A DNA stretch of 33,787 nucleotides, taken from assembly GCA_964368775.1 (NCBI GenBank), contig CAYJCX010000001.1, positions 9,216 through 43,002 of the forward strand, read 5' to 3'. A program made the translations under genes and the position numbers. Shown piece by piece: positions 14,777 through 29,295 of this stretch; the first letter of the stretch is position 1; the number at the start of each line of letters is the position of its first letter. Source of the DNA: an uncultured Candidatus Saccharibacteria bacterium. Its GTDB lineage: Bacteria > Patescibacteriota > Minisyncoccia > Phycocordibacterales > UBA9973. Below the pieces are notes generated by a model, which saw only the letters and a list, made by a program, of their open reading frames with translations, searched no databases and was not told the DNA's origin.

Positions 14777-15199
14777 ATGCAAATCAAGATAAAAAGACTA
14801 AAAGAAGATGCAAAGCTTCCAACCTATGCTCACCCAGGGGACGTAGGTATGGATATGTATGCCATGGAAACCGCAGTAATAAAACCAATGGAACATTATA
14901 GATTTTTCCATGGCTTTGCTTTGGAATTTCCAGTTGGTTTTGCGGCAATAGTAAAAGATAAAAGTAGTATTTCTAAAGCCGGTCTTCATACTATGGGCGG
15001 CGTATATGACGCAGGTTATCGCGGAGAATATAATACACATTTAGTAAATTTATCTGGGAAAGACTATACAGTAGAAAAAGGAGACAAAGTTTCGCAGCTT
15101 ATAATATATCCCGTCACAATTGGCGAATTGGTAGAAGTAGGCGAGCTTGAAGATTCGGATCGTGGCACGGGCGCATTTGGTTCTACTGGTAAAAAATAA
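14777..15199 (+). CDS. dut: dUTP diphosphatase
   Basis: LPTYAHPGDVGMDMYA, GVYDAGYRGE, the motif-5-like C-terminus RGTGAFGSTG, and a 140-aa size. Confidence 0.93.
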   Translation: MQIKIKRLKEDAKLPTYAHPGDVGMDMYAMETAVIKPMEHYRFFHGFALEFPVGFAAIVKDKSSISKAGLHTMGGVYDAGYRGEYNTHLVNLSGKDYTVEKGDKVSQLIIYPVTIGELVEVGELEDSDRGTGAFGSTGKK

Positions 15200-15214
15200 A
15201 ACAAAAACAGCAGG

Positions 15215-15466
15215 CTATATGCCTACTGGTCCTTGTTTCTTTTTTAGATCATTTCCGTTTTTTCTTTTAGGGTCTTTTTTTGTGCCTGATTCTTCTTGTT
15301 CTTCTATGTCAGTGTCTTCTTCTATTTCGTCTGGTTCCACTGGTATTACAACTGGCTCAGGTTCTGGTTTAGGTTGGGGAATTGGTTCTGGCTGTTCTTT
15401 ACCTTTGCCTCCATCGGCTACTATTTCTGTATCTGGTTTCTTTATCGTAAATAATCTTTCTATCAT
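15215..15466 (-). CDS. Hypothetical Pro/Glu-rich low-complexity protein (83 aa)
   Basis: Fits the dut-ileS gap exactly. The competing plus-strand ORF overlaps dut. Low-complexity sequence, so coding status is uncertain. Confidence 0.35.
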   Translation of the reverse strand: MIERLFTIKKPDTEIVADGGKGKEQPEPIPQPKPEPEPVVIPVEPDEIEEDTDIEEQEESGTKKDPKRKNGNDLKKKQGPVGI

Positions 15467-15486
15467 AGATGTGATTATAGGGCTTA

Positions 15487-15515
15487 TTTACATACCCTGT
15501 CAAATAGGGTAATAT
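15487..15515 (+). promoter_or_regulatory. Sigma-70-type promoter of the ileS leader (TTTACA-17 nt-TAATAT)
   Basis: -35 at 15487-15492, 17-nt spacer, -10 at 15510-15515. Positioned just upstream of the T-box leader. Confidence 0.5.
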
Positions 15516-15523
15516 ATGAATAT

Positions 15524-15699
15524 AAGCGTTATTAGGGGCTATCAACCTCAAGCTTTGGGAAGAACGCTTGCATTGCAAGCTATTAGAACCCAATAAACGA
15601 GTCCTGAATTATTTCAGGAAAACCAAGGTGGTACCACGGGCTCAAAACTCGTCCTTGCATTATAACTTTTGTTGTAGTGTGGGGACGAGTTTTTATTTT
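15524..15699 (+). promoter_or_regulatory. T-box riboswitch leader (Ile) controlling ileS
   Basis: T-box sequence CAAGGTGGTACCACGGG at 15624-15640. The antiterminator has A1 caagg/ccttg, a 7-nt bulge TGGTACC and A2 acggg/ctcgt. A competing terminator is present. Stem III hairpin tcctgaa/ttcagga at 15602-15619. Candidate specifier ATC-A at 15541-15544. Confidence 0.85.
15647..15699 (+). terminator. T-box terminator hairpin
   Basis: actcgtcc (15647-15654) pairs with ggacgagt (15683-15690), followed by ttttatttt. The 5' arm is shared with the antiterminator. Confidence 0.8.
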
Positions 15700-15711
15700 A
15701 ATTAATTATTT

Positions 15712-18700
15712 ATGGAAGAAGAAAAAAACATACCAAAAACATCTAACGAGCGTGAATTAGACATCATAGCTTTTTGGAAGAAAAATAAAATCTTTGAAGA
15801 ATCACTGGAGAAAAAATCTGACCGTGGTGAATTCATATTTTATGATGGGCCGCCTACTGCTAACGGTCGCCCTGGTATTCACCATTTGGAAGCTCGCGCT
15901 TTTAAAGATGCAATTCCAAGATATAAAACCATGCAGGGATTCCATGTTCGCCGCAAAGGCGGCTGGGATACACACGGTCTACCAGTGGAGCTTGAAGTTG
16001 AAAAACAACTTGGACTAACAGATAAAAAACAAATTGAAGAATACGGAATAGATAAATTTAACCAAAAATGTAAAGAAAGCGTTTGGACTTATATAGATGA
16101 ATGGGAAAAATTTACCAATCGTAGCGCGTACTGGGTAGACAGTAAAAACCCATATGTTACTTATGATTCATCTTATATTGAATCTCTTTGGAGCATCGTA
16201 AAAACAGTTGAAGATAAAAAATTACTTTATAAGGATTACCGTATTGTGCCATGGTGTGCACGTTGCGGAACGGCACTGTCGTCTCACGAATTAGCGCAAG
16301 GTTATAAAGATGTAAAAGATTTATCTGTAACTGCAAAATTTAAAGTAGTAGGGCAGGAGAATACTTTTCTTTTAGCTTGGACTACAACTCCGTGGACATT
16401 GCCCGGCAACGTGGCTCTAGCTGTAAATGAAAAATTAGAATATGTAAAAATTCTAGTAGGCAATGAATATTATATTTTAGGCAAAGAAAGGCTTTCTATA
16501 ATAGAAGGTGAGTATGGAATAATCGAAGAATTTACCGGAGAAAAATTGTTAGGTCTAGAATATCTTCCGCTATATTCATATTTCGGGAATCTAATTAATG
16601 GAGAACAAAAAAATAATTTAGAAAAGGCTTACAAAGTATATTCAGCAGATTTTGTAACAGCAAATGATGGTACAGGTATCGTCCATACTGCCGTAATGTA
16701 TGGGCAAGATGACTTTGAATTAGGTACAAAACTTGGTCTACCTAAATTCCATTTAGTTAGTGACAACGGGCATTTTATAGATGGTATGGAATTCTTGTCA
16801 GGCCGCTTTGTAAAAGATGAGCAGGTTGCAATAGACATAATTAAAGATTTAGCAAACAGAGACGGTGGTAGTTTGTTGTTTAAAAAAGAAAAATTTGAAC
16901 ACAGTTACCCACATTGTTGGCGTTGTTCTACGCCGCTGGTTTATTACGCGCGTGATTCTTGGTATATCCGCATGAGTTCTCTTCGTGATAGTCTTGTATC
17001 AAGTAATGATTTTATAAATTGGAATCCAACGCACATTGGTCAGGGTAGATTTGGCGAATGGCTAAGAGAAGTAAAAGATTGGGCAATTTCCCGCGAGAGA
17101 TACTGGGGGACGCCTCTACCTGTATGGGAAGATAGTGTTGGAACCAGACATATTTTTACAAATCGCGATGAACTAAAAAATGCAACAAAAAGATCTGGTA
17201 ATAAATATGTAATGATGCGCCATGGTCAAGCTGAAAGTAATTTGACCGGAATTTGTTCTTATGCAACCGGGGATGTTACTCCACTAACAGAATTAGGACG
17301 TAATCAAGTTAAAGCGGCAGCAGAAGAATTGCGGACTAAGAAAATTGATCTTATTTATATTTCACCATTTTTGCGTACGAGACAAAGTGCGGAAATAGTT
17401 GCTGATGTTCTTGGCTTGCCACATGTAAATATTATTGAAGACAAAAGACTAATAGACTTGAATGTGGGTATTTTTGAAGGTAAGACTTGGAAAGAATATT
17501 TTGAATTTTTTGAAAATAAAAATCGTTTTACCGAGCCAGCTCCTGGCGGCGAAACTGTTACCGATGTAAAACGTCGAGTAGGAGAAGCCCTGTACGAAAT
17601 GGATGAAAATCTAAAAGACAAGAATATTTTAATTCTTGGACATGGAATTACTCTTTGGATGCTAGAGTCTGTTGCCCAGGGTGCAAATAATAAAGAGACA
17701 TTAGTAATTCGCGAAGAACTAAATCATCATCCACACCAAGATTCACTACCTAACGCGTCTTGGAGAGATTTAGACTTTACTCCATTACCCCACAATATTG
17801 ATTTTGAACTAGATTTACATCGCCCGTATATTGATGAATATCCAGTGTTTGACGAGCAGGGTGAAAAATTAAATCGAGTAAAAGAAGTTATGGATGTTTG
17901 GTTTGATTCCGGAGCCATGCCTTTTGCGCAAGATGGCTATCCAAGATTAACCGACAAAATTCATTTCCCAGCAGACTATATTTGTGAAGCAGTAGACCAA
18001 ACACGTGGTTGGTTTTATACATTACATGCAGTAGGAGCTTTAACTGGTATGGGGGCGGCATATAAAAATGTTATTTGTTTGGGTCATATCTTAGACAAAA
18101 ATGGACTAAAGATGAGTAAATCCAAAGGCAACGTAGTAAACCCGTGGGATATGTTTGAAAAATATGGTGCGGATGCACTGCGATTTTGGATGTATTCTGT
18201 AAACCAGCCAGGGGATTCTAAAAATTTTGATGAAAAAACTGTAGACGAAATAGTTAAAAAAGTTTTTAATCTTACACGCAATGTTTTAGCGTTTTATGAT
18301 TTACATCGAAATCGTGAGGACGAATTAAACTATAGTTTAGAAAACAAAGCAGAGAATCCTTTAGATATTTGGATTTTGGTAAAATTAAATAAACTTATTT
18401 CCAATAATACAATCGCGATGGATAATTATGATCTATTTTCTGCATCACGTAATATTCGTGAATTTGTTGATGAATTATCTACTTGGTATTTGAGACGCTC
18501 TAGAGAATCTTTACGCGAAGGCAATGCTAGCGCAATACAAACATTATATGTTGTCTTAAAAAATTTAGCATTACTAATGGCACCATTGGCTCCTTTTACT
18601 GCCGAAGATTTATGGATGAATTTGCGTACCAGTAATGATACTACCAGTGTACATCTTGCAGATTGGCCAAAATCTATAGAAATTCCAGAAGCAGATTTTG

Positions 18701-19161
18701 TCTTAGAATCTATGGAAAAAGTACGCAGTATTGTTAGCGGTGGTCATGCAATGCGTAAAGATCTAAATATTCCTGTACGTCAACCTTTAGCTAAATTATA
18801 TGTTACTGAAAAAATAGAAGATGACTATATTCCAATAATTTGTGACGAACTAAATGTTAAAGCTGTAATCATTGGTAAGAAATTTGAGTTAGATTCTGAA
18901 ATCACTTCAGATCTAAAATCTGAAGGAATGTATAGAGAATTCTTGCGTTATATTCAAGACTTGCGCAAAACTTCAGGATTAATGCCGGGTCAATTAGTTT
19001 CTCTGCATTTAGGGACTAATAATTCCGGTAAAGATTTTATTGGTCTTTGGCAAGATTCATTAATGGCCGAAGCTTCTATCTCCGAAATAATTTTTGAAGA
19101 AACAGTAGCGGGTCCAAATGTTGTAATCGACGAATTAGAATTTGTTGGTAAATTTGTATGA
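15712..19161 (+). CDS. ileS: Isoleucine--tRNA ligase (type 2-like) carrying an inserted histidine-phosphatase domain
   Basis: GPPTANGRPGIHH, the editing-domain TTTPWTLPGN, WGTPLPVW, DVWFDSGAMPF, KMSKSKGN, and the upstream T-box. At 1149 aa it includes an extra module of about 190 aa. Confidence 0.95.
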   Translation: MEEEKNIPKTSNERELDIIAFWKKNKIFEESLEKKSDRGEFIFYDGPPTANGRPGIHHLEARAFKDAIPRYKTMQGFHVRRKGGWDTHGLPVELEVEKQLGLTDKKQIEEYGIDKFNQKCKESVWTYIDEWEKFTNRSAYWVDSKNPYVTYDSSYIESLWSIVKTVEDKKLLYKDYRIVPWCARCGTALSSHELAQGYKDVKDLSVTAKFKVVGQENTFLLAWTTTPWTLPGNVALAVNEKLEYVKILVGNEYYILGKERLSIIEGEYGIIEEFTGEKLLGLEYLPLYSYFGNLINGEQKNNLEKAYKVYSADFVTANDGTGIVHTAVMYGQDDFELGTKLGLPKFHLVSDNGHFIDGMEFLSGRFVKDEQVAIDIIKDLANRDGGSLLFKKEKFEHSYPHCWRCSTPLVYYARDSWYIRMSSLRDSLVSSNDFINWNPTHIGQGRFGEWLREVKDWAISRERYWGTPLPVWEDSVGTRHIFTNRDELKNATKRSGNKYVMMRHGQAESNLTGICSYATGDVTPLTELGRNQVKAAAEELRTKKIDLIYISPFLRTRQSAEIVADVLGLPHVNIIEDKRLIDLNVGIFEGKTWKEYFEFFENKNRFTEPAPGGETVTDVKRRVGEALYEMDENLKDKNILILGHGITLWMLESVAQGANNKETLVIREELNHHPHQDSLPNASWRDLDFTPLPHNIDFELDLHRPYIDEYPVFDEQGEKLNRVKEVMDVWFDSGAMPFAQDGYPRLTDKIHFPADYICEAVDQTRGWFYTLHAVGALTGMGAAYKNVICLGHILDKNGLKMSKSKGNVVNPWDMFEKYGADALRFWMYSVNQPGDSKNFDEKTVDEIVKKVFNLTRNVLAFYDLHRNREDELNYSLENKAENPLDIWILVKLNKLISNNTIAMDNYDLFSASRNIREFVDELSTWYLRRSRESLREGNASAIQTLYVVLKNLALLMAPLAPFTAEDLWMNLRTSNDTTSVHLADWPKSIEIPEADFVLESMEKVRSIVSGGHAMRKDLNIPVRQPLAKLYVTEKIEDDYIPIICDELNVKAVIIGKKFELDSEITSDLKSEGMYREFLRYIQDLRKTSGLMPGQLVSLHLGTNNSGKDFIGLWQDSLMAEASISEIIFEETVAGPNVVIDELEFVGKFV
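17200..17775 (+). other. In-frame histidine phosphatase superfamily (PGM/CobC-like, branch 1) domain inserted in IleRS
   Basis: YVMMRHGQAESN (RHG at 17218-17226), LTELGRNQ, IYISPFLRTRQSAE, PGGETVTDVKRRV, ILILGHGITLW (His codon at 17641-17643). Boundaries are approximate. Confidence 0.8.
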
Positions 19162-19598
19162 CATCACTGTTCTTAACCATTGCTCGACTGTTACGTGTGT
19201 TTAAACGCAGTATAAAAGATTCTGAATTCCGAAAGCTATTTTTGATTGTTTTTGCACTGCTTGTTTCAGGGTCTTTGTTCTACCATTTAGTAGAAGGCTG
19301 GAGATACATAGATGCGCTTTATTTTAGCGTTACTACGTTAACGACTGTTGGTTCTCCAATTATTCCATATCATGACGTTAGCAAGGTTTTCACTATTGTA
19401 TATTTACTTGTAGGTATTGGGGTAATGCTTTCATTTTTAGCACGTGTTGCAGAACAAGCAAAGAAAGAATCTTCTGTTGCAAAAGCTATGGCTATTGAAT
19501 CTTACGAAACAACAAAACAAGTTTTAAATTATTTCGGGTCAATTTTTGAAGACAAGAAAGATCTTATCAAAGATAAAAAGAAAGATTTAAACTCTTAA
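19158..19598 (+). CDS. Two-TM potassium-channel-like protein (Ion_trans_2-like) with a non-canonical filter
   Basis: The EGWRYIDALYFSVTTLTTVGSPIIP pore-helix/filter region lies between two TM helices. The start overlaps the ileS stop (ATGA). Confidence 0.7.
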   Translation: MTSLFLTIARLLRVFKRSIKDSEFRKLFLIVFALLVSGSLFYHLVEGWRYIDALYFSVTTLTTVGSPIIPYHDVSKVFTIVYLLVGIGVMLSFLARVAEQAKKESSVAKAMAIESYETTKQVLNYFGSIFEDKKDLIKDKKKDLNS

Positions 19599-19603
19599 AT
19601 AAT

Positions 19604-20155
19604 ATGGCATATGATGTTTATACATTGTCTGGTTTTATTTTAGAGGTCAAAGACGTTGGCGAATTTGATAAGAGAATAACTTTATTCTCTAAAGAAAGAG
19701 GCATAATAGAAGCTAAAGCAATTAGTTCTGGCAAACCAGGTTCTAAACTGCGCGGATTTTTAGTACGTTTCTGTTTTGTCTATATTGATGTAGTTCATGG
19801 GCGAACAGGGTATAGATTAATTCGGGCCCGCAGCGGTGATCAAGGTTTTTTAATCCACAAAAAAGAAGCTTATTTTGTTTTAGCCCGATTTTCTAAATTA
19901 ATTGGGTCTATACTGCCAGAAGAAGTCCTGCACGAAGGCACATTCCAAACTTTTTTTAATTTAATGGAATTTTTAGAAAAAAATATAATTACAGATAATA
20001 AAATAAATACTACCTATTACTATTATGCATTAAGACTTTTTAAAGAGCTTGGTTATGTAGACAAAGGTAAAAACATCGAAAACATTCCAGATTCTATTAT
20101 GCAAAAAGAATACGAATATGTTTTAAATGAAAATGGAATAACTTATATGATATAA
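19604..20155 (+). CDS. recO: RecO-like DNA repair protein (short form)
   Basis: The N-terminal OB-fold pattern (GFILEVKDVGEFDKRITLFSKERGIIEAKA..G..SKLRG) resembles RecO. There is no clear zinc motif and the protein is shorter than typical. Confidence 0.5.
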   Translation: MAYDVYTLSGFILEVKDVGEFDKRITLFSKERGIIEAKAISSGKPGSKLRGFLVRFCFVYIDVVHGRTGYRLIRARSGDQGFLIHKKEAYFVLARFSKLIGSILPEEVLHEGTFQTFFNLMEFLEKNIITDNKINTTYYYYALRLFKELGYVDKGKNIENIPDSIMQKEYEYVLNENGITYMI

Positions 20156-20164: not shown

Positions 20165-22051
20165 ATGAGTGATGACCGCCAAGGTGAACCAGATTTTATA
20201 GATAAAAGAGAAACAGATCTCTATAGTACAGGGCGTCCATCGCCAACAGTACAAAATCATCCTTTAAAAGGGACTTCTTTTAAATTACGAACTCCAATAT
20301 CACGAAACCCTGTAATTGGCGATTCTAGATCCAGAACTTCTTTTGCTAAAAAGTTTTTTTTAGTATCTATTTTAATTCTAATTATTGCAGCTTTTTATAC
20401 TGCGTACAGGTTATTTTTTTCTGAATCAAGGGAAGATTTTGTAGCTCGTCATATAGATATTGCAATTGTCACTGCACCTTTTACCAAAGGTGGTGAAGAA
20501 CTACCTGTAGCTATAAATATTATTAATCGCAACAATGTAACTCTGAAAGCCGTCCATGCGGAAATAGAATATCCCCGTGGTAGTGAAGCCGTTACTAGAG
20601 ACGATTTCGAAAGGCAGACTTTGGATTTGGGTGATATTCCTAGCGGAGGAGAAGCCAGTAGAAATATCAATGTTGTTCTTTATGGTGAACAAGGTACTAC
20701 TAAAAATATAAAAGTCATATTAGATTATTCTCTGCCGGATTCTTCTTTAACTTATAATAAATCCGGCTCTAGTTCTTTAACTATTAGTTCTTCTCCTGTA
20801 ATCGTAGAAATAGATGCTCCCAAAGATATTTCACCGGGACAGCTTTATACTTTGCGTGCTCGTATTACTCAAAATACAAAGACCTTGCCAGTAGGTGCAC
20901 TGTTAAACGTTTCTTACCCACGTGACTTTACACCAGAATCAGTGTCTCGGGTTGTAACTTATGGTGTTAGTACTTGGGCATTAAAAACAACTAAACAGGG
21001 AGACTACGAAGATTTAGTTATTAATGGTCGTTTTTCTTCACAAGAAGGAGATGAAAGATCATTCCGTTTTACTATTGGGATACCTTTGGAAAATGATGCT
21101 ACTTCTATTAAAACTAGCTATGTTTCCAAAACCCATGTAGTTTCGTTATCAAAGCCACTACTGGATGCTTATATCTTGCTTGGTAATGAAAAAGCCAAGA
21201 CTATCGCTGTAAATCCAGACAGTTACATTAACGGTACATTGGTTTATCGTAATCGTTACAATACTGCAGTTATAGACCCTGTGTTTAAAATAAATATTAC
21301 AGGTTCAGCGCTAGATGAATCTTCTATTTCTCCGGTAGATGGATTTTATAATTCAACAAAAAAAGAAATCTTTTGGGATAAAAATACCAACGAAAGATTA
21401 GTTAGCATACCGGCTGGCGGCGAAGGCAAGTTAAGCTTTACATTTCGTGTATTGCCTAGAAGTATCGATGGTCCAGTTGTGGTTCGTGATCCATCGGTTA
21501 GTTTATCTTTATCTTTTTCTGGTATGCGAGATGATGGTAGCAGTGTTGTCCAGTCTTTAGAGAATGTAGAATTAGCATCTGTACGTGTTACTACTGAGCC
21601 TAAGATTAGTATAACTAATATTTTTGCTTCAGGGGCACTGCCACCAAAAGTAAATACTGAAACAAAATACCAAGTTATGATGTCTGTTGAAAATACTCAT
21701 AATGAAATCACTGGTGCAAAATTAGTAGCTAAGATACCATTTTATGTGGAATGGGTTGGTAAAGTTACAAAGAACGAAAAAGTTTCTTATAACCCAGACA
21801 CAAGAGAGGTGGTTTGGACATTGGGTAATGTTGCCGCTGGTGCAGGGAATACCACAGCTCTCCGTAGCGCTGAAATTCAACTTTCTATAACACCATCTCT
21901 TTCTCAAATAGAATCATCTCCCGAAATTTTGCAAAATATCCGTTTTACTGGTACTGACTTGTTTTCAAATAAAGATGTAAAAGCTGTGCGTCCTAATATC
22001 ACTACCAAAATTACAGATGGCTCTTCCAAGGATGGCATCGTAGTTCAGTAA
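20165..22051 (+). CDS. Hypothetical membrane-anchored protein (628 aa) with repeated beta-rich modules
   Basis: Basic cytoplasmic N-terminus, one TM (FFLVSILILIIAAFYTAY), and a long Ser/Thr/Asn/Val-rich ectodomain with about four similarly patterned modules. Confidence 0.7.
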   Translation: MSDDRQGEPDFIDKRETDLYSTGRPSPTVQNHPLKGTSFKLRTPISRNPVIGDSRSRTSFAKKFFLVSILILIIAAFYTAYRLFFSESREDFVARHIDIAIVTAPFTKGGEELPVAINIINRNNVTLKAVHAEIEYPRGSEAVTRDDFERQTLDLGDIPSGGEASRNINVVLYGEQGTTKNIKVILDYSLPDSSLTYNKSGSSSLTISSSPVIVEIDAPKDISPGQLYTLRARITQNTKTLPVGALLNVSYPRDFTPESVSRVVTYGVSTWALKTTKQGDYEDLVINGRFSSQEGDERSFRFTIGIPLENDATSIKTSYVSKTHVVSLSKPLLDAYILLGNEKAKTIAVNPDSYINGTLVYRNRYNTAVIDPVFKINITGSALDESSISPVDGFYNSTKKEIFWDKNTNERLVSIPAGGEGKLSFTFRVLPRSIDGPVVVRDPSVSLSLSFSGMRDDGSSVVQSLENVELASVRVTTEPKISITNIFASGALPPKVNTETKYQVMMSVENTHNEITGAKLVAKIPFYVEWVGKVTKNEKVSYNPDTREVVWTLGNVAAGAGNTTALRSAEIQLSITPSLSQIESSPEILQNIRFTGTDLFSNKDVKAVRPNITTKITDGSSKDGIVVQ

Positions 22052-27843: not shown

Positions 27844-29295
27844 ATGAATAAGACTTTCTATATTACGACAACATTGCCGTATGTAAATGCACCATTACAT
27901 ATGGGGCATGCTTTAGAATTTGTCCGTGCTGATAGTATTGCTCGTTATAAAAAACTAATGGGCTACGACGTGTTCTTTAACACAGGTACAGACGAGCACG
28001 GTATGAAAATCTACGAAAAGGCGGCCGAAAATGGTATGGACGCAAAAACTTTTGTAGATCAAAACTTTTTAGTTTTTAAAGAACAACTAAACATTTTTGG
28101 GATTAGTAATGATGTACATTTTATTCGTACCACTGATCAGCACCACGAATCTTCTGCTCAGGAATTTTGGAAGCGCGTACAAGATAATGGCTATATTTAT
28201 AAAAAAGATTACGAAGCAAAATACTGTGTTGGCTGTGAATCTGAAAAAACTGACAGTGAACTGGGGGACGACGGTACCTGCCCACTGCATCCGGGGATAG
28301 CATTGCAGGTAATAAAAGAAGAAAACTATTTCTTCAAATATTCTGCCTTTCAAGAAAAACTTTTAGCTTTTTATGAAGCAAATCCAAATTTTATAATTCC
28401 AGAATTTAGATTTAATGAAATAAAAAATTTCGTATCTGCTGGGCTGCAAGATTTTTCTATCTCTCGCAAAAAAGAAAAAATGCCGTGGGGTATCCCAGTA
28501 CCAGGGGACGACGAACAAGTAATGTATGTTTGGTTTGATGCACTAACAAACTATATTAATACACTTGGCTGGCCAGAAACATCAGGGGATTTTGAGAAAT
28601 ATTGGGTCAATGGCACACCTACTCAATATTGCGGTAAAGACAATACTCGTTTCCAAGGCGCAATGTGGCAAGCAATGCTTATGGCGGCAGATGTGCCAAA
28701 TTCACACCAAATAATAGTAAATGGTTTTATTACAGGAGACGGCGGCATAAGAATGTCTAAGACTTTGGGTAACACTGTAGACCCACGCGACGTTGCCGGC
28801 GAATACGGTGTAGATGCACTGCGTTATTTCTTATTGCGCGAAATCTCTAGCTTTGAAGACAGCCCTTTTACAATAGAGAGATTTAAAGACGCATACAACA
28901 GCGGACTTGCAAACGGAATAGGGAATTTAACTAACCGTATAATTAAAATGTCTGAATCTGCTTTTGGAGAACCACTAGAGATTCCAAATATGATTTTGAC
29001 CGATGATTGGCTACCTGCAGTGCATGCAATGGAGAAATTTAATATTCAGGAAGCGATGCATGTAATATTTAAACATGTTACATCTTTGGATGAAATGATT
29101 CAAAAAACAGAACCTTTTAAATTAATCAAAACAGATGAAAATGCTGCAAAAGAAATCATAAAAGATCTAGTTATAAAACTGCGTGACATTGGCCAAATGC
29201 TGACGCCGGTAATGCCAGAAACCAGTAGTAGAATTTTGGAAATAGTAAAACAAAACAAAAAGCCCGAAAATCCACTGTTTTTACGTAAAGACTAA
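27844..29295 (+). CDS. metG: Methionine--tRNA ligase (short form, no C-terminal Trbp111 domain)
   Basis: TTTLPYVNAPLHMGHA (HIGH-type), knuckle CVGCESE...CPLH, and RMSKTLGN (KMSKS-type). Confidence 0.95.
   Translation: MNKTFYITTTLPYVNAPLHMGHALEFVRADSIARYKKLMGYDVFFNTGTDEHGMKIYEKAAENGMDAKTFVDQNFLVFKEQLNIFGISNDVHFIRTTDQHHESSAQEFWKRVQDNGYIYKKDYEAKYCVGCESEKTDSELGDDGTCPLHPGIALQVIKEENYFFKYSAFQEKLLAFYEANPNFIIPEFRFNEIKNFVSAGLQDFSISRKKEKMPWGIPVPGDDEQVMYVWFDALTNYINTLGWPETSGDFEKYWVNGTPTQYCGKDNTRFQGAMWQAMLMAADVPNSHQIIVNGFITGDGGIRMSKTLGNTVDPRDVAGEYGVDALRYFLLREISSFEDSPFTIERFKDAYNSGLANGIGNLTNRIIKMSESAFGEPLEIPNMILTDDWLPAVHAMEKFNIQEAMHVIFKHVTSLDEMIQKTEPFKLIKTDENAAKEIIKDLVIKLRDIGQMLTPVMPETSSRILEIVKQNKKPENPLFLRKD

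What the first reader, a model, noticed from the sequence alone, without database searches (positions are those of the whole stretch)
17200..17775. Complete histidine-phosphatase (RHG) domain inserted in frame inside the catalytic core of IleRS
The conserved IleRS blocks WGTPLPVW (17104-17127) and DLHRPYID...VMDVWFDSGAMPF (from 17812) are normally joined by a short connector of a few tens of residues, often a Cys-rich Zn knuckle in type-2 enzymes. Here they are separated by about 190 extra residues. That segment carries the full motif set of histidine phosphatase superfamily branch 1 (dPGM/CobC/SixA-like). The motifs are YVMMRHGQAESN (Arg503-His504), LTELGRNQ, IYISPFLRTRQSAE, PGGETVTDVKRRV and ILILGHGITLW (His644), so the catalytic Arg/His/Arg/Glu/His residues all appear intact. 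The reading frame is continuous, the knuckle cysteines are absent, and the rest of the enzyme (editing domain, KMSKS, anticodon-binding region) looks functional and is under an Ile T-box. I do not know of a described aminoacyl-tRNA synthetase with an internal phosphatase module. Speculatively it could act on a phosphorylated nucleotide or tRNA-end species, or be a moonlighting metabolic domain in a reduced genome.
Basis: partly seen in the sequence, partly recalled or inferred. Interest (0 to 1): 0.85.

Follow-up and report, generated by a model that had tools for sequence, protein, structure and literature searches.

The report
Phosphatase domain nested inside IleRS
An intact-looking phosphatase enzyme is built into the middle of the enzyme that loads isoleucine onto tRNA in this small-genome bacterium, and the same pairing recurs across its relatives (as an insert at three different sites, or as the gene next door), which points to an undescribed link between the two activities.

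Summary
One continuous 1149-aa ORF (15712-19161) encodes a type-2 IleRS, and residues ~481-692 add a complete His_Phos_1 domain (Pfam E=2.5e-32) where relatives have a short Cys4 zinc knuckle.

It is not an assembly artefact or a one-off. All 120 closest full-length relatives carry it, as do 90 of the top 150 representatives of 50%-identity clusters (named ones are Nomura-, Campbell-, Kaiser-, Colwell-, Sungbacteria). The catalytic Arg/His/Arg/Glu/His set is essentially invariant, dN/dS of the insert (0.10) equals that of the core (0.09), and the insert folds confidently as a PhoE/PspA-like phosphatase.

New here:
- In eight of nine standalone relatives sampled, the phosphatase gene lies directly upstream of an insert-less ileS (usually argS-hp-ileS-x-recO).
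- Other lineages carry the domain at two other IleRS sites, or twice.

Repeated independent joining argues for functional coupling between phosphatase and IleRS. The substrate is unknown.

No description was found in the literature searched; databases label these proteins generically. Verdict: a real, widespread, apparently undescribed IleRS architecture; a new variant of a known kind. The Ile T-box claim is only partly supported, and the HIGH motif is the known non-canonical GXHH variant.

The parts
15520..15699 (+). T-box-like leader of ileS. It has the T-box core (GGUGGUACCACG), a terminator hairpin at 15645-15692 followed by a U-run, and a short hairpin loop showing AUC-A (15541-15544) as the probable Ile specifier.
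   Evidence: RF00230 scores 40.7 bits, E=1.5e-7, below the gathering score of 93. Terminator scan. Fold z=-6.5. The specifier assignment is my reading of the sequence.
15712..19161 (+). Complete ileS ORF (1149 aa plus stop): a type-2 IleRS with a nested histidine phosphatase domain.
15712..17151 (+). IleRS N-terminal part (aa 1-480): first half of the Rossmann fold, the CP1 editing domain and the start of the second half, ending just after WGTPLPVW. Includes GIHH (aa 55-58, nt 15874-15885), the editing motifs WTTTPWTLPGN (nt 16378-16410) and GTGIVH (nt 16669-16686), and the retained Zn site C182/C185/C402/C405.
17152..17199 (+). N-side linker (aa 481-496). It aligns with the first part of the knuckle loop of insert-less relatives. 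The CxxC pair is lost here.
17200..17715 (+). His_Phos_1 phosphatase domain (aa 497-668). Catalytic residues: R503-H504 (nt 17218-17223), R555 (17374-17376), E614 (17551-17553), R622 (17575-17577), H644 (17641-17643).
   Evidence: Pfam E=2.5e-32. pLDDT 91-96 in the full model and 94 when folded alone. TM 0.80-0.82 to PspA and PhoE. Residue conservation. dN/dS 0.10.
17716..17787 (+). C-side linker (aa 669-692), leading back into the remnant of the knuckle. Lower model confidence (~73). The CxC pair that follows DLHRPYIDE in relatives is lost here.
17788..19161 (+). IleRS C-terminal part (aa 693-1149): DLHRPYID, DVWFDSG, KMSKS (aa 800-804, nt 18109-18123), the anticodon-binding domain and the type-2 C-terminal domain (DUF5915).

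Best explanation
WHAT IT IS (shown). This is a bifunctional protein. A working type-2 isoleucyl-tRNA synthetase carries, nested in the surface zinc-knuckle loop of the second half of its catalytic fold, a complete and selectively maintained small histidine phosphatase of the PhoE/PspA/CobC kind.

ORIGIN (inferred from comparative data). In related candidate-phyla bacteria the same phosphatase is a separate gene directly upstream of an insert-less ileS, usually in the order argS-hp-ileS-x-recO. The phosphatase has been joined to IleRS repeatedly. Most often it sits inside the Cys4 knuckle, whose cysteines were later lost in the window's sub-lineage. It also occurs at two other sites on either side of the KMSKS loop, and sometimes twice in one protein.

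HOW IT WORKS (inferred, not shown). The IleRS part charges tRNA-Ile as usual, under T-box control. The phosphatase part uses the standard His504 phospho-enzyme mechanism, with R503, R555 and H644 forming the phosphate pocket and E614 as the acid, to remove a phosphomonoester. Because the two have been linked so persistently and so often, I commit to functional coupling. On this view the phosphatase is held at IleRS so that it acts on a phosphate-bearing species of the aminoacylation system. Candidates are a blocking 2'/3'-phosphate on the tRNA 3' end, an inhibitory phospho-serine on the synthetase (for example in the KMSKS loop), or an adenine nucleotide product.

MY ESTIMATES. The domain is an active phosphatase: about 0.9. 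It is functionally coupled to IleRS rather than merely co-expressed: about 0.55. Any one named substrate: at most 0.2.
For: - Domain identity and integrity.
- Functional IleRS scaffold: TIGR00392 above its cut-off, editing and KMSKS motifs invariant, model TM 0.78 to 8c8w.
- Lineage-wide presence: 120 of 120 closest relatives and 90 of the top 150 representatives of 50% clusters, down to 35% identity.
- Catalytic residues R503, H504, R555 and H644 kept in 120/120, R622 in 119/120, E614 in 113/120, and in at least 90 of 91 domain copies among the diverse representatives.
- dN/dS: insert 0.101, core 0.089.
- Gene adjacency: 8 of 9 standalone relatives sampled lie 0-5 nt upstream of an insert-less ileS.
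- Alternative sites and double copies confirmed by BLAST and Pfam: P0268, P0360, P0323, P0390. They lie on 261-268 kb contigs or in multi-member clusters. Their phosphatase copies are not each other's closest relatives.
- The knuckle is kept around the insert in 44 of 120 relatives and lost in 68.
Against: - No biochemical or structural evidence for any substrate.
- The domain is near neutral in charge, like unlinked relatives, so it shows no sign of an RNA-binding surface.
- The closest insert-less IleRS (P0244, 61% identical) has neither the insert nor an adjacent phosphatase gene. The phosphatase is therefore dispensable for IleRS function in some lineages.
- Conserved neighbours of ileS without any known functional link exist in other bacteria (ileS-lspA; my own knowledge). 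Adjacency alone is therefore weak evidence, and it also supplies repeated opportunity for fusion.
- No member of this superfamily is known to act on RNA ends (my own knowledge).
Confidence: 0.6

Rival explanations
1. Independent housekeeping phosphatase. The domain is an active PhoE/PspA-like small-molecule phosphatase (sugar phosphate, phosphoserine, nucleotide) whose chemistry has nothing to do with aminoacylation. It travels with ileS only because the two genes are old neighbours in a compact operon. Fusion gives fixed 1:1 expression and saves regulatory sequence in a reduced genome. Once nested in an essential enzyme it is hard to lose.
For: Family assignment is to broad-specificity small phosphatases. 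The charge is unremarkable. The close relative P0244 lacks the phosphatase at this locus altogether. Adjacency provides the opportunity for repeated fusion.
Against: No simple end-to-end N-terminal fusion was seen among the 90 insert-bearing representatives, although read-through from the upstream gene would be the easiest route. All fusions are internal, at three loops in the KMSKS-bearing half of the enzyme. Independent captures of different phosphatase copies, and double copies, also occur. The gene pair is kept down to 37% phosphatase identity.
Confidence: 0.3
2. Non-catalytic structural module. The phosphatase fold merely replaced or buttresses the zinc knuckle and serves as a scaffold or tRNA/protein-binding surface. 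Its enzymatic activity is irrelevant or lost.
For: The window's sub-lineage lost all four knuckle cysteines after gaining the insert, so the insert may have taken over a structural role.
Against: The catalytic residues are essentially invariant although the domain has diverged to about 43% identity, or 35-40% for distant copies. 44 of 120 relatives keep both the knuckle and the insert. Standalone orthologues next to ileS keep the same catalytic set.
Confidence: 0.06
3. Moonlighting glycolytic cofactor-dependent phosphoglycerate mutase embedded in IleRS. This was one of the first reader's suggestions.
For: It belongs to the same superfamily, and weak NCBIfam hits to dPGM models exist.
Against: All dPGM models score far below their cut-offs: pgm_1 23 against 81.7, dPGM_arch 74-75 against 225. 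The domain is about 172 aa against about 230-250 aa for mutases. The best sequence and fold matches are phosphatases: PspA, PhoE, CobC.
Confidence: 0.03
4. Artefact: a chimeric assembly or a frameshifted pair of genes read as one ORF.
For: None found. Some database relatives are visibly frameshifted or fragmented (P0052, the P0394 locus), which shows that such errors do occur in this gene.
Against: The ORF is continuous. 120 full-length relatives from independent samples and sources share the architecture. Purifying selection acts across both junctions (linkers dN/dS 0.078). The single-chain model is confident.
Confidence: 0.01

Closest known systems
Type-2 isoleucyl-tRNA synthetase (IleRS2), e.g. 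Priestia megaterium IleRS2 (PDB 8c8u/8c8v/8c8w; Brkic et al. 2023, PMC10485003)
   Same: Overall fold (TM 0.78 normalised to the target). Best sequence match in the PDB. Type-2 C-terminal domain (DUF5915). The window also carries the non-canonical GXHH signature motif (GIHH) that the paper links to mupirocin hyper-resistance.
   Different: PmIleRS2 has a connector of about 14 residues between the knuckle's Cys pairs. The window has about 212 residues containing a whole enzyme domain and no knuckle cysteines.
Small branch-1 histidine phosphatases: PhoE (1ebb/1h2e), PspA phosphoserine phosphatase (4ij5/4ij6), CobC alpha-ribazole phosphatase (6nru)
   Same: Fold (TM 0.78-0.82, rmsd 2.2-2.4 A). 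Profile E-values 1.7e-23 to 4.5e-20. Full catalytic Arg/His/Arg/Glu/His set. Size about 170-200 aa.
   Different: Those enzymes are free-standing. The window's domain scores below every NCBIfam equivalog cut-off (CobC 80-85 against 162.9, PspA 58-63 against 350), so no substrate can be transferred. Here the domain is nested in another enzyme.
NCBIfam NF040702 'isoleucine--tRNA ligase, N-acetyltransferase domain-containing' (ileS_w_GNAT)
   Same: It is a catalogued precedent for an IleRS that carries an extra enzyme domain (the model is listed).
   Different: The extra domain is of a different kind (GNAT, not a histidine phosphatase). The window scores 310.9 against a cut-off of 1999, so it is not a member. 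I did not examine where the GNAT domain sits.
Bifunctional RNase H/acid phosphatase (NCBIfam PRK07238; M. tuberculosis Rv2228c type)
   Same: A CobC-like histidine phosphatase domain is fused to an enzyme that works on nucleic acid. The window's insert hits the phosphatase half (73.8-77.7 bits).
   Different: That is an end-to-end fusion rather than a nested insertion, with a different partner. The score is far below the cut-off of 326. The biological reason for that fusion is also unclear (my own knowledge).
CP1 editing domain and other connective-peptide insertions of class Ia synthetases
   Same: The principle is the same: a whole catalytic domain nested in a loop of the Rossmann fold. The IleRS literature divides the inserts into CP core, CP1, CP2 and CP3.
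   Different: CP1 is universal in IleRS, ValRS and LeuRS and acts on the aminoacylation product. The phosphatase is lineage-restricted, comes from an unrelated superfamily and has no known link to the reaction. Calling the knuckle 'CP3' is my own assignment and was not tested.

Membership tests
Histidine phosphatase superfamily, branch 1 (Pfam PF00300 His_Phos_1) | Profile match above the curated cut-off | tested here: met
   112.6 bits in the whole protein and 117.4 bits for the insert alone, against a cut-off of 21.7.
Histidine phosphatase superfamily, branch 1 (Pfam PF00300 His_Phos_1) | Catalytic core: RHG nucleophile His, two Arg, second His, acidic proton donor | tested here: met
   R503, H504, R555, H644 and E614 (plus R622) are present. 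They are invariant or nearly so in 120 relatives and in 91 diverse domain copies.
Histidine phosphatase superfamily, branch 1 (Pfam PF00300 His_Phos_1) | Alpha/beta fold of the superfamily | tested here: met
   Model pLDDT 94. TM 0.80-0.82 and rmsd 2.2-2.4 A to 4ij5 and 1h2e.
Histidine phosphatase superfamily, branch 1 (Pfam PF00300 His_Phos_1) | Phosphatase activity through a phospho-histidine intermediate | not testable with these tools
   Needs an enzyme assay.
Cofactor-dependent phosphoglycerate mutase (dPGM) | Match to dPGM family models above the cut-off | tested here: not met
   TIGR01258 scores 23 against 81.7. NF038349 scores 74-75 against 225. The other gpm models are far below their cut-offs.
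CobC alpha-ribazole phosphatase / PspA phosphoserine phosphatase / SixA | Match to the equivalog model above the cut-off | tested here: not met
   TIGR03162 scores 80-85 against 162.9. NF045917 scores 58-63 against 350. TIGR00249 scores 35.9 against 74.5.
Isoleucyl-tRNA synthetase (TIGR00392 ileS) | Equivalog model above the cut-off | tested here: met
   843.9 bits against 621.4, in two stretches.
Isoleucyl-tRNA synthetase (TIGR00392 ileS) | Class I signature motifs HIGH and KMSKS | tested here: met
   KMSKS at aa 800-804. HIGH is replaced by GIHH at aa 55-58. This matches the GXHH variant shown to be functional in IleRS2 (PMC10485003).
Isoleucyl-tRNA synthetase (TIGR00392 ileS) | CP1 editing domain with its conserved motifs | tested here: met
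   WTTTPWTLPGN (aa 223-233) and GTGIVH (aa 320-325) are present and invariant in the 62-sequence alignment. Solved isolated editing domains match aa 197-401 (1wk8).
Type-2 IleRS (IleRS2) | Type-2 C-terminal domain instead of the C-terminal zinc-binding domain of IleRS1; closest to IleRS2 structures | tested here: met
   DUF5915 at aa 1060-1141. IleRS2 and T. thermophilus entries score 729-786 bits, against 250-324 bits for IleRS1 entries. Foldseek ranks IleRS2 first.
Plasmid-type mupirocin-resistance IleRS MupA / MupB | Exception-model score above the cut-off | tested here: not met
   771 and 745 bits against a cut-off of 1900.
T-box leader (Rfam RF00230) | Covariance-model score above the gathering threshold | tested here: not met
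   40.7 bits against 93 (E=1.5e-7). There was no hit in gathering mode.
T-box leader (Rfam RF00230) | T-box core sequence, competing terminator, and a specifier codon matching the regulated synthetase | tested here: inconclusive
   The core AAGGUGGUACCACG aligns to the model. A terminator lies at 15645-15692 with a U-run. AUC-A sits in a short hairpin loop at 15541-15544 (my reading). Stem I is drastically shortened (78 model positions replaced by 9 nt).

The most novel reading that the evidence does not exclude
The IleRS-tethered phosphatase is a built-in 'de-blocking' enzyme of the translation apparatus. It would remove an inhibitory phosphate either from the 3' end of damaged tRNA-Ile, or from a serine of the synthetase's own active-site loop after attack by a toxin kinase. 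This would keep isoleucine charging running in bacteria that live under constant chemical attack from hosts and neighbours. The same lineage also carries the mupirocin-hyper-resistance GXHH motif, and rare relatives add an HD phosphohydrolase or a possible P-loop kinase-like domain to the same IleRS. Together these would make IleRS a hub for self-repair or defence domains.
Probability: 0.2. Interest if true: 0.9.

Novelty: new variant of a known kind. Interest (0 to 1): 0.72.

Why it matters
**A possible new function.** Aminoacyl-tRNA synthetases are among the best studied enzymes, and extra catalytic domains nested in their active-site fold are rare outside the universal editing domain. Here a second, unrelated enzyme has been joined to IleRS again and again across a very large and poorly understood part of the bacterial tree. 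It appears as a neighbouring gene, at three insertion sites, and in double dose. That pattern suggests an unknown phosphate-dependent step connected with isoleucine charging, tRNA-Ile or IleRS regulation. The proteins are easy to express, which makes the question directly testable.

**An annotation problem.** Databases label many of these proteins only 'class I tRNA ligase family protein', or label fragments 'histidine phosphatase family protein'. As a result IleRS can look missing, or a phosphatase can look free-standing, in metabolic reconstructions of candidate-phyla genomes.

**A case study in protein evolution.** The series from intact Cys4 knuckle, to knuckle plus insert, to insert with the cysteines lost is a clean natural example of domain insertion into a metal-binding loop.

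Tried and rejected
1. Rfam in gathering mode found nothing in the window. Only the permissive mode showed the reduced T-box.
2. The window's IleRS is not on record in the contig look-up, so the source sample could not be identified.
3. The search for related loci with the 17-sequence insert alignment failed because no stretch was conserved enough. The single-protein scan of genome contigs returned only 4 loci, so it gave no taxonomic survey. Three of those records are labelled 'uncultured Candidatus Saccharibacteria'. This conflicts with the Nomurabacteria/Paceibacterota names of similar proteins, so I treat it as a generic label.
4. In one search all hits were 546 aa or shorter, which first looked like split genes. 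I concluded it was a length limit of the search, because the full-length query returned proteins of 1129-1297 aa.
5. Model coordinates are not exposed. The planned measurement of distance and orientation between the phosphatase pocket, the KMSKS loop, the tRNA path and the three insertion sites could not be made.
6. A neighbour-joining tree of phosphatase domains had very short internal branches. It could not tell whether the standalone genes are ancestral to the inserts or derived from them.
7. Net charge and pI of the domains did not separate IleRS-linked copies from unlinked ones.
8. Seven literature searches, plus targeted reading of the two most relevant IleRS evolution papers, found no description of this architecture. 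One further search failed on syntax.
9. Rejected outright: misassembly or frameshift, and the glycolytic mutase reading. Considered unlikely: a non-catalytic scaffold. See the rival explanations.
Full report
**1. The observation**

The window holds one uninterrupted ORF, 15712..19161 on the + strand, of 1149 aa.

Pfam finds His_Phos_1 at aa 500-661 (E=2.5e-32, 112.6 bits, cut-off 21.7). The class I synthetase match is split in two around it. NCBIfam calls the protein ileS (TIGR00392, 843.9 bits against a cut-off of 621.4, two stretches).

Against the closest solved structure, Priestia megaterium type-2 IleRS, query 4-480 aligns to chain 3-464 and query 693-1053 to chain 479-848. A connector of about 14 residues there is about 212 residues here.

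The four cysteines that flank this position in relatives are absent. The other zinc site (C182, C185, C402, C405) is kept.

**2. Not an artefact and not a one-off**

A search with the full protein returned 120 best hits of 1129-1297 aa and 55-100% identity. All of them carry PF00133 plus PF00300, and they come from NCBI, JGI, ENA and Logan assemblies.

A search of representatives of 50%-identity clusters showed the insert in 90 of the top 150, down to 35% identity. It occurs in IleRS with either the GXHH or the canonical HXGH motif.

Names attached by sources include Candidatus Nomurabacteria, Paceibacterota/Pacebacteria, Colwellbacteria, Sungbacteria, Parcubacteria, Campbellbacteria and Kaiserbacteria. 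The architecture is therefore lineage-wide in the Parcubacteria-type part of the candidate phyla radiation.

**3. The insert is a maintained, folded, catalytically complete phosphatase**

- Conservation: across 120 full-length relatives the insert has diverged more than the core (43% against 63% mean identity to the window). Even so, R503, H504, R555 and H644 are kept in 120/120, R622 in 119 and E614 in 113.
- Wider set: among 91 domain copies in the diverse representatives, the set is kept in at least 90.
- Selection: between the window and its 86-87% identical relative (L017), dN/dS is 0.101 for the insert, 0.078 for the two linkers and 0.089 for the IleRS core.
- Full-chain model: AlphaFold2 gives mean pLDDT 85.2 and pTM 0.74, with pLDDT 91-96 across the insert. 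The model superposes on IleRS2 structures (TM 0.78 normalised to the target).
- Insert alone: it folds with pLDDT 94 and matches PspA phosphoserine phosphatase and PhoE best (TM 0.80-0.82, rmsd 2.2-2.4 A). The sequence profile ranks the same proteins first.
- Substrate class: all NCBIfam equivalog models (CobC, PspA, SixA, the dPGM families) score far below their cut-offs. The domain is a small phosphatase-type member of unknown substrate, not a mutase.

**4. Anatomy of the insertion site**

In relatives the phosphatase is bracketed by C-x2-C just after WGxPLPVW and by C-x-C-G just after DLHRPYIDE. It therefore sits inside the loop of the Cys4 knuckle.

Of 120 relatives, 44 keep both Cys pairs and 68, including the window, have lost both. 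Insert-less relatives have the plain knuckle. For example, L001 reads CDKC...VFASALELEKAS...DLHKDVVDEVTFECSCGG, and its loop aligns with the window's linker IFTNRDELKNAT.

The likely order of events is knuckle, then knuckle plus insert, then loss of the cysteines. I think this knuckle corresponds to the element called CP3 in IleRS structure papers, which list CP core, CP1, CP2 and CP3. That assignment is mine and was not tested.

**5. New comparative evidence: the gene next door**

The closest free-standing relatives of the insert are proteins of 180-207 aa, 37-45% identical to it. That is about as similar as inserts of other lineages are to the window's.

I looked at the genomic context of nine of them.

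- Eight (P0051, P0053, P0058, P0068, P0397, P0399, P0404, P0408) lie 0-5 nt upstream of an IleRS gene on the same strand. Where that IleRS gene is complete (945-1011 aa) it lacks the insert.
- The usual order is argS-hp-ileS-x-recO. The window itself has ileS, then a K+ channel gene, then recO.
- The ninth, more distant one (P0418, 33% identical, different context) is not linked.
- A tenth candidate, P0394, turned out to be an insert-bearing IleRS with fragmented gene calls.
- The closest insert-less IleRS (P0244, 61% identical, GIHH) sits in argS-ileS-recO with no phosphatase gene. The association is therefore common but not obligatory.

**6. New comparative evidence: other insertion sites and double copies**

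BLAST against the window's protein, followed by Pfam, shows the following.

- P0268 (1273 aa): an unsplit catalytic domain and a normal knuckle, with His_Phos_1 at 733-899. This lies between the catalytic body and the anticodon-binding domain (window coordinates ~867-880).
- P0360 (1230 aa, annotated Candidatus Peregrinibacteria): His_Phos_1 at 562-731, inserted at window coordinate ~744, between DVWFDSGAMPFAQ and FPADY.
- P0323: a knuckle copy plus a second copy at the ~867-880 site.
- P0390: two copies in tandem in the knuckle.

All of these copies keep the catalytic set. They lie on 261-268 kb contigs or recur in several contigs. They are 35-40% identical to any other copy, and the two copies within one protein are not each other's best matches. 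This indicates separate captures rather than recent duplication.

None of the 90 insert-bearing representatives has the domain simply fused to the N-terminus, although read-through from the upstream gene would produce exactly that. All three sites lie in the half of the enzyme that carries the KMSKS loop (aa 800-804).

Two rarities add further domains. P0224 has an HD phosphohydrolase domain at 1102-1196. P0335 has a weak P-loop kinase-like match (AAA_18, 28.9 bits against a cut-off of 29.4) at window coordinate ~740.

**7. How it most likely works**

*Shown.* The protein combines a complete IleRS2 with a complete phosphatase domain that is under purifying selection. The pairing is ancient and recurrent.

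*Inferred.* The phosphatase is active and uses the standard His504 phospho-enzyme mechanism. The repeated joining reflects selection for keeping it at IleRS. I commit to functional coupling, meaning that it acts on a phosphate-bearing species of the aminoacylation system.

Candidate substrates:
- a 2'/3'-phosphate that blocks the tRNA 3' end;
- a phospho-serine on the synthetase's active-site loop;
- an adenine nucleotide product.

My probability for coupling is about 0.55, and at most 0.2 for any single substrate.

*Main rival (about 0.3).* An unrelated housekeeping small-molecule phosphatase is tied to ileS only by old gene neighbourhood and by genome economy.

*Points against coupling.* There are no activity data. 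The domain shows no RNA-binding charge signature. P0244-type lineages manage without it. Conserved but functionally unexplained neighbours of ileS exist elsewhere, such as ileS-lspA (my own knowledge).

*Other rivals.* A non-catalytic scaffold, a glycolytic mutase and an assembly artefact are each unlikely, for the reasons given under the rival explanations.

**8. Comparison with what is known**

- The scaffold is a member of IleRS2. It shares with some IleRS2 the GXHH motif that Brkic et al. tie to mupirocin hyper-resistance (PMC10485003).
- The insert is a member of His_Phos_1 but of no characterised subfamily.
- NCBIfam does catalogue an IleRS with a GNAT domain (NF040702), and an RNase H/acid phosphatase fusion whose phosphatase half resembles this insert (PRK07238). 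It has no model for IleRS with a histidine phosphatase.
- Seven full-text searches, plus reading of the two most relevant IleRS evolution papers, found no mention of this architecture.
- Database names are generic: 'class I tRNA ligase family protein', 'histidine phosphatase family protein, partial'.

**9. The T-box claim**

Rfam finds nothing at gathering level. In permissive mode it finds RF00230 at 15520-15659 with 40.7 bits (gathering score 93), E=1.5e-7, and Stem I cut from 78 model positions to 9 nt.

The T-box core sequence is present. So is a 20-pair terminator at 15645-15692 followed by a U-run. The leader folds with z=-6.5. A small hairpin loop shows AUC-A at 15541-15544, which would fit an Ile specifier (my reading).

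This is a plausible reduced Ile T-box, but it does not meet the family threshold.

**10. Verdict**

The finding is real and its description was accurate. It is not unique to this genome. It is the commonest form of a widespread and apparently undescribed association between a PhoE-like phosphatase and IleRS in candidate-phyla bacteria.

I rate it a new variant of a known kind (a synthetase with an accreted domain), with interest 0.72. It is surprising to a specialist, backed by strong comparative evidence, and directly testable, but it has no established function.

Noticed in passing
window 15874-15885 (aa 55-58 of IleRS): The class I HIGH signature reads GIHH. This is the non-canonical GXHH variant that Brkic et al. 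2023 (PMC10485003) showed to give IleRS2 hyper-resistance to mupirocin. P54, H57 and H58 are invariant and G55 nearly invariant in the 62-sequence alignment of insert-bearing relatives. The insert-less IleRS genes next to standalone phosphatases have the canonical HYGH.
   Followed up: partly
P0224 (aa 1102-1196) and P0335 (aa 746-869), relatives of the window's IleRS: Two insert-bearing IleRS relatives carry further domains: an HD phosphohydrolase inside the C-terminal domain, and a weak P-loop kinase-like AAA_18/AAA_33 match at window coordinate ~740. Each is a single 90%-identity cluster.
   Followed up: partly
window 15215-15503, minus strand: An 83-aa minus-strand ORF (15466..15215) rich in Pro, Glu and Lys has a perfect 12/12 sigma-70-type promoter match (15503-15474) and a terminator-like hairpin (15228-15208). 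It overlaps a 121-aa plus-strand ORF (15147..15512) of low complexity. It may be a real small gene lying between the dUTPase gene and the ileS leader.
   Followed up: no
window 19158-19598: A small two-TM-type ion channel gene (Ion_trans_2, 146 aa) starts 4 nt before the ileS stop codon (ATGA overlap). It sits between ileS and recO, where relatives have an unannotated gene of about 290-310 aa.
   Followed up: no
window 27844-29295 and 19604-20155: The MetRS is only 483 aa: catalytic domain matches only, with no anticodon-domain hit at E<=1e-5. The RecO is only 183 aa, with the N-terminal domain only. These may be minimal versions typical of reduced genomes.
   Followed up: no
window 20165-22051: A 628-aa ORF with an N-terminal hydrophobic segment has no Pfam match at E<=1e-5.
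   Followed up: no
L012 1254-4115 (locus of standalone phosphatase P0399): Between argS and the hp-ileS pair this locus has gained a Pif1-type helicase, a PemK/MazF-type toxin and a HAD hydrolase. This looks like a mobile or defence insertion into the otherwise conserved argS-hp-ileS array.
   Followed up: no
L017-L019 (genome contigs records CAZWBZ010000011.1, CAZXFC010000009.1, CAZALP010000006.1): These records are titled 'uncultured Candidatus Saccharibacteria bacterium'. Their IleRS-phosphatase proteins, however, group with sequences named Nomurabacteria, Paceibacterota and similar, so the label may be a generic placeholder for Patescibacteria.
   Followed up: no
P0052 (KatS3mg100_049, 207 kb contig) and L010 (P0394 locus): Some database copies of this gene are frameshifted or split into several gene calls, so that the phosphatase appears as a separate ORF. 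Such cases could be mistaken for free-standing phosphatases or for a missing IleRS.
   Followed up: partly
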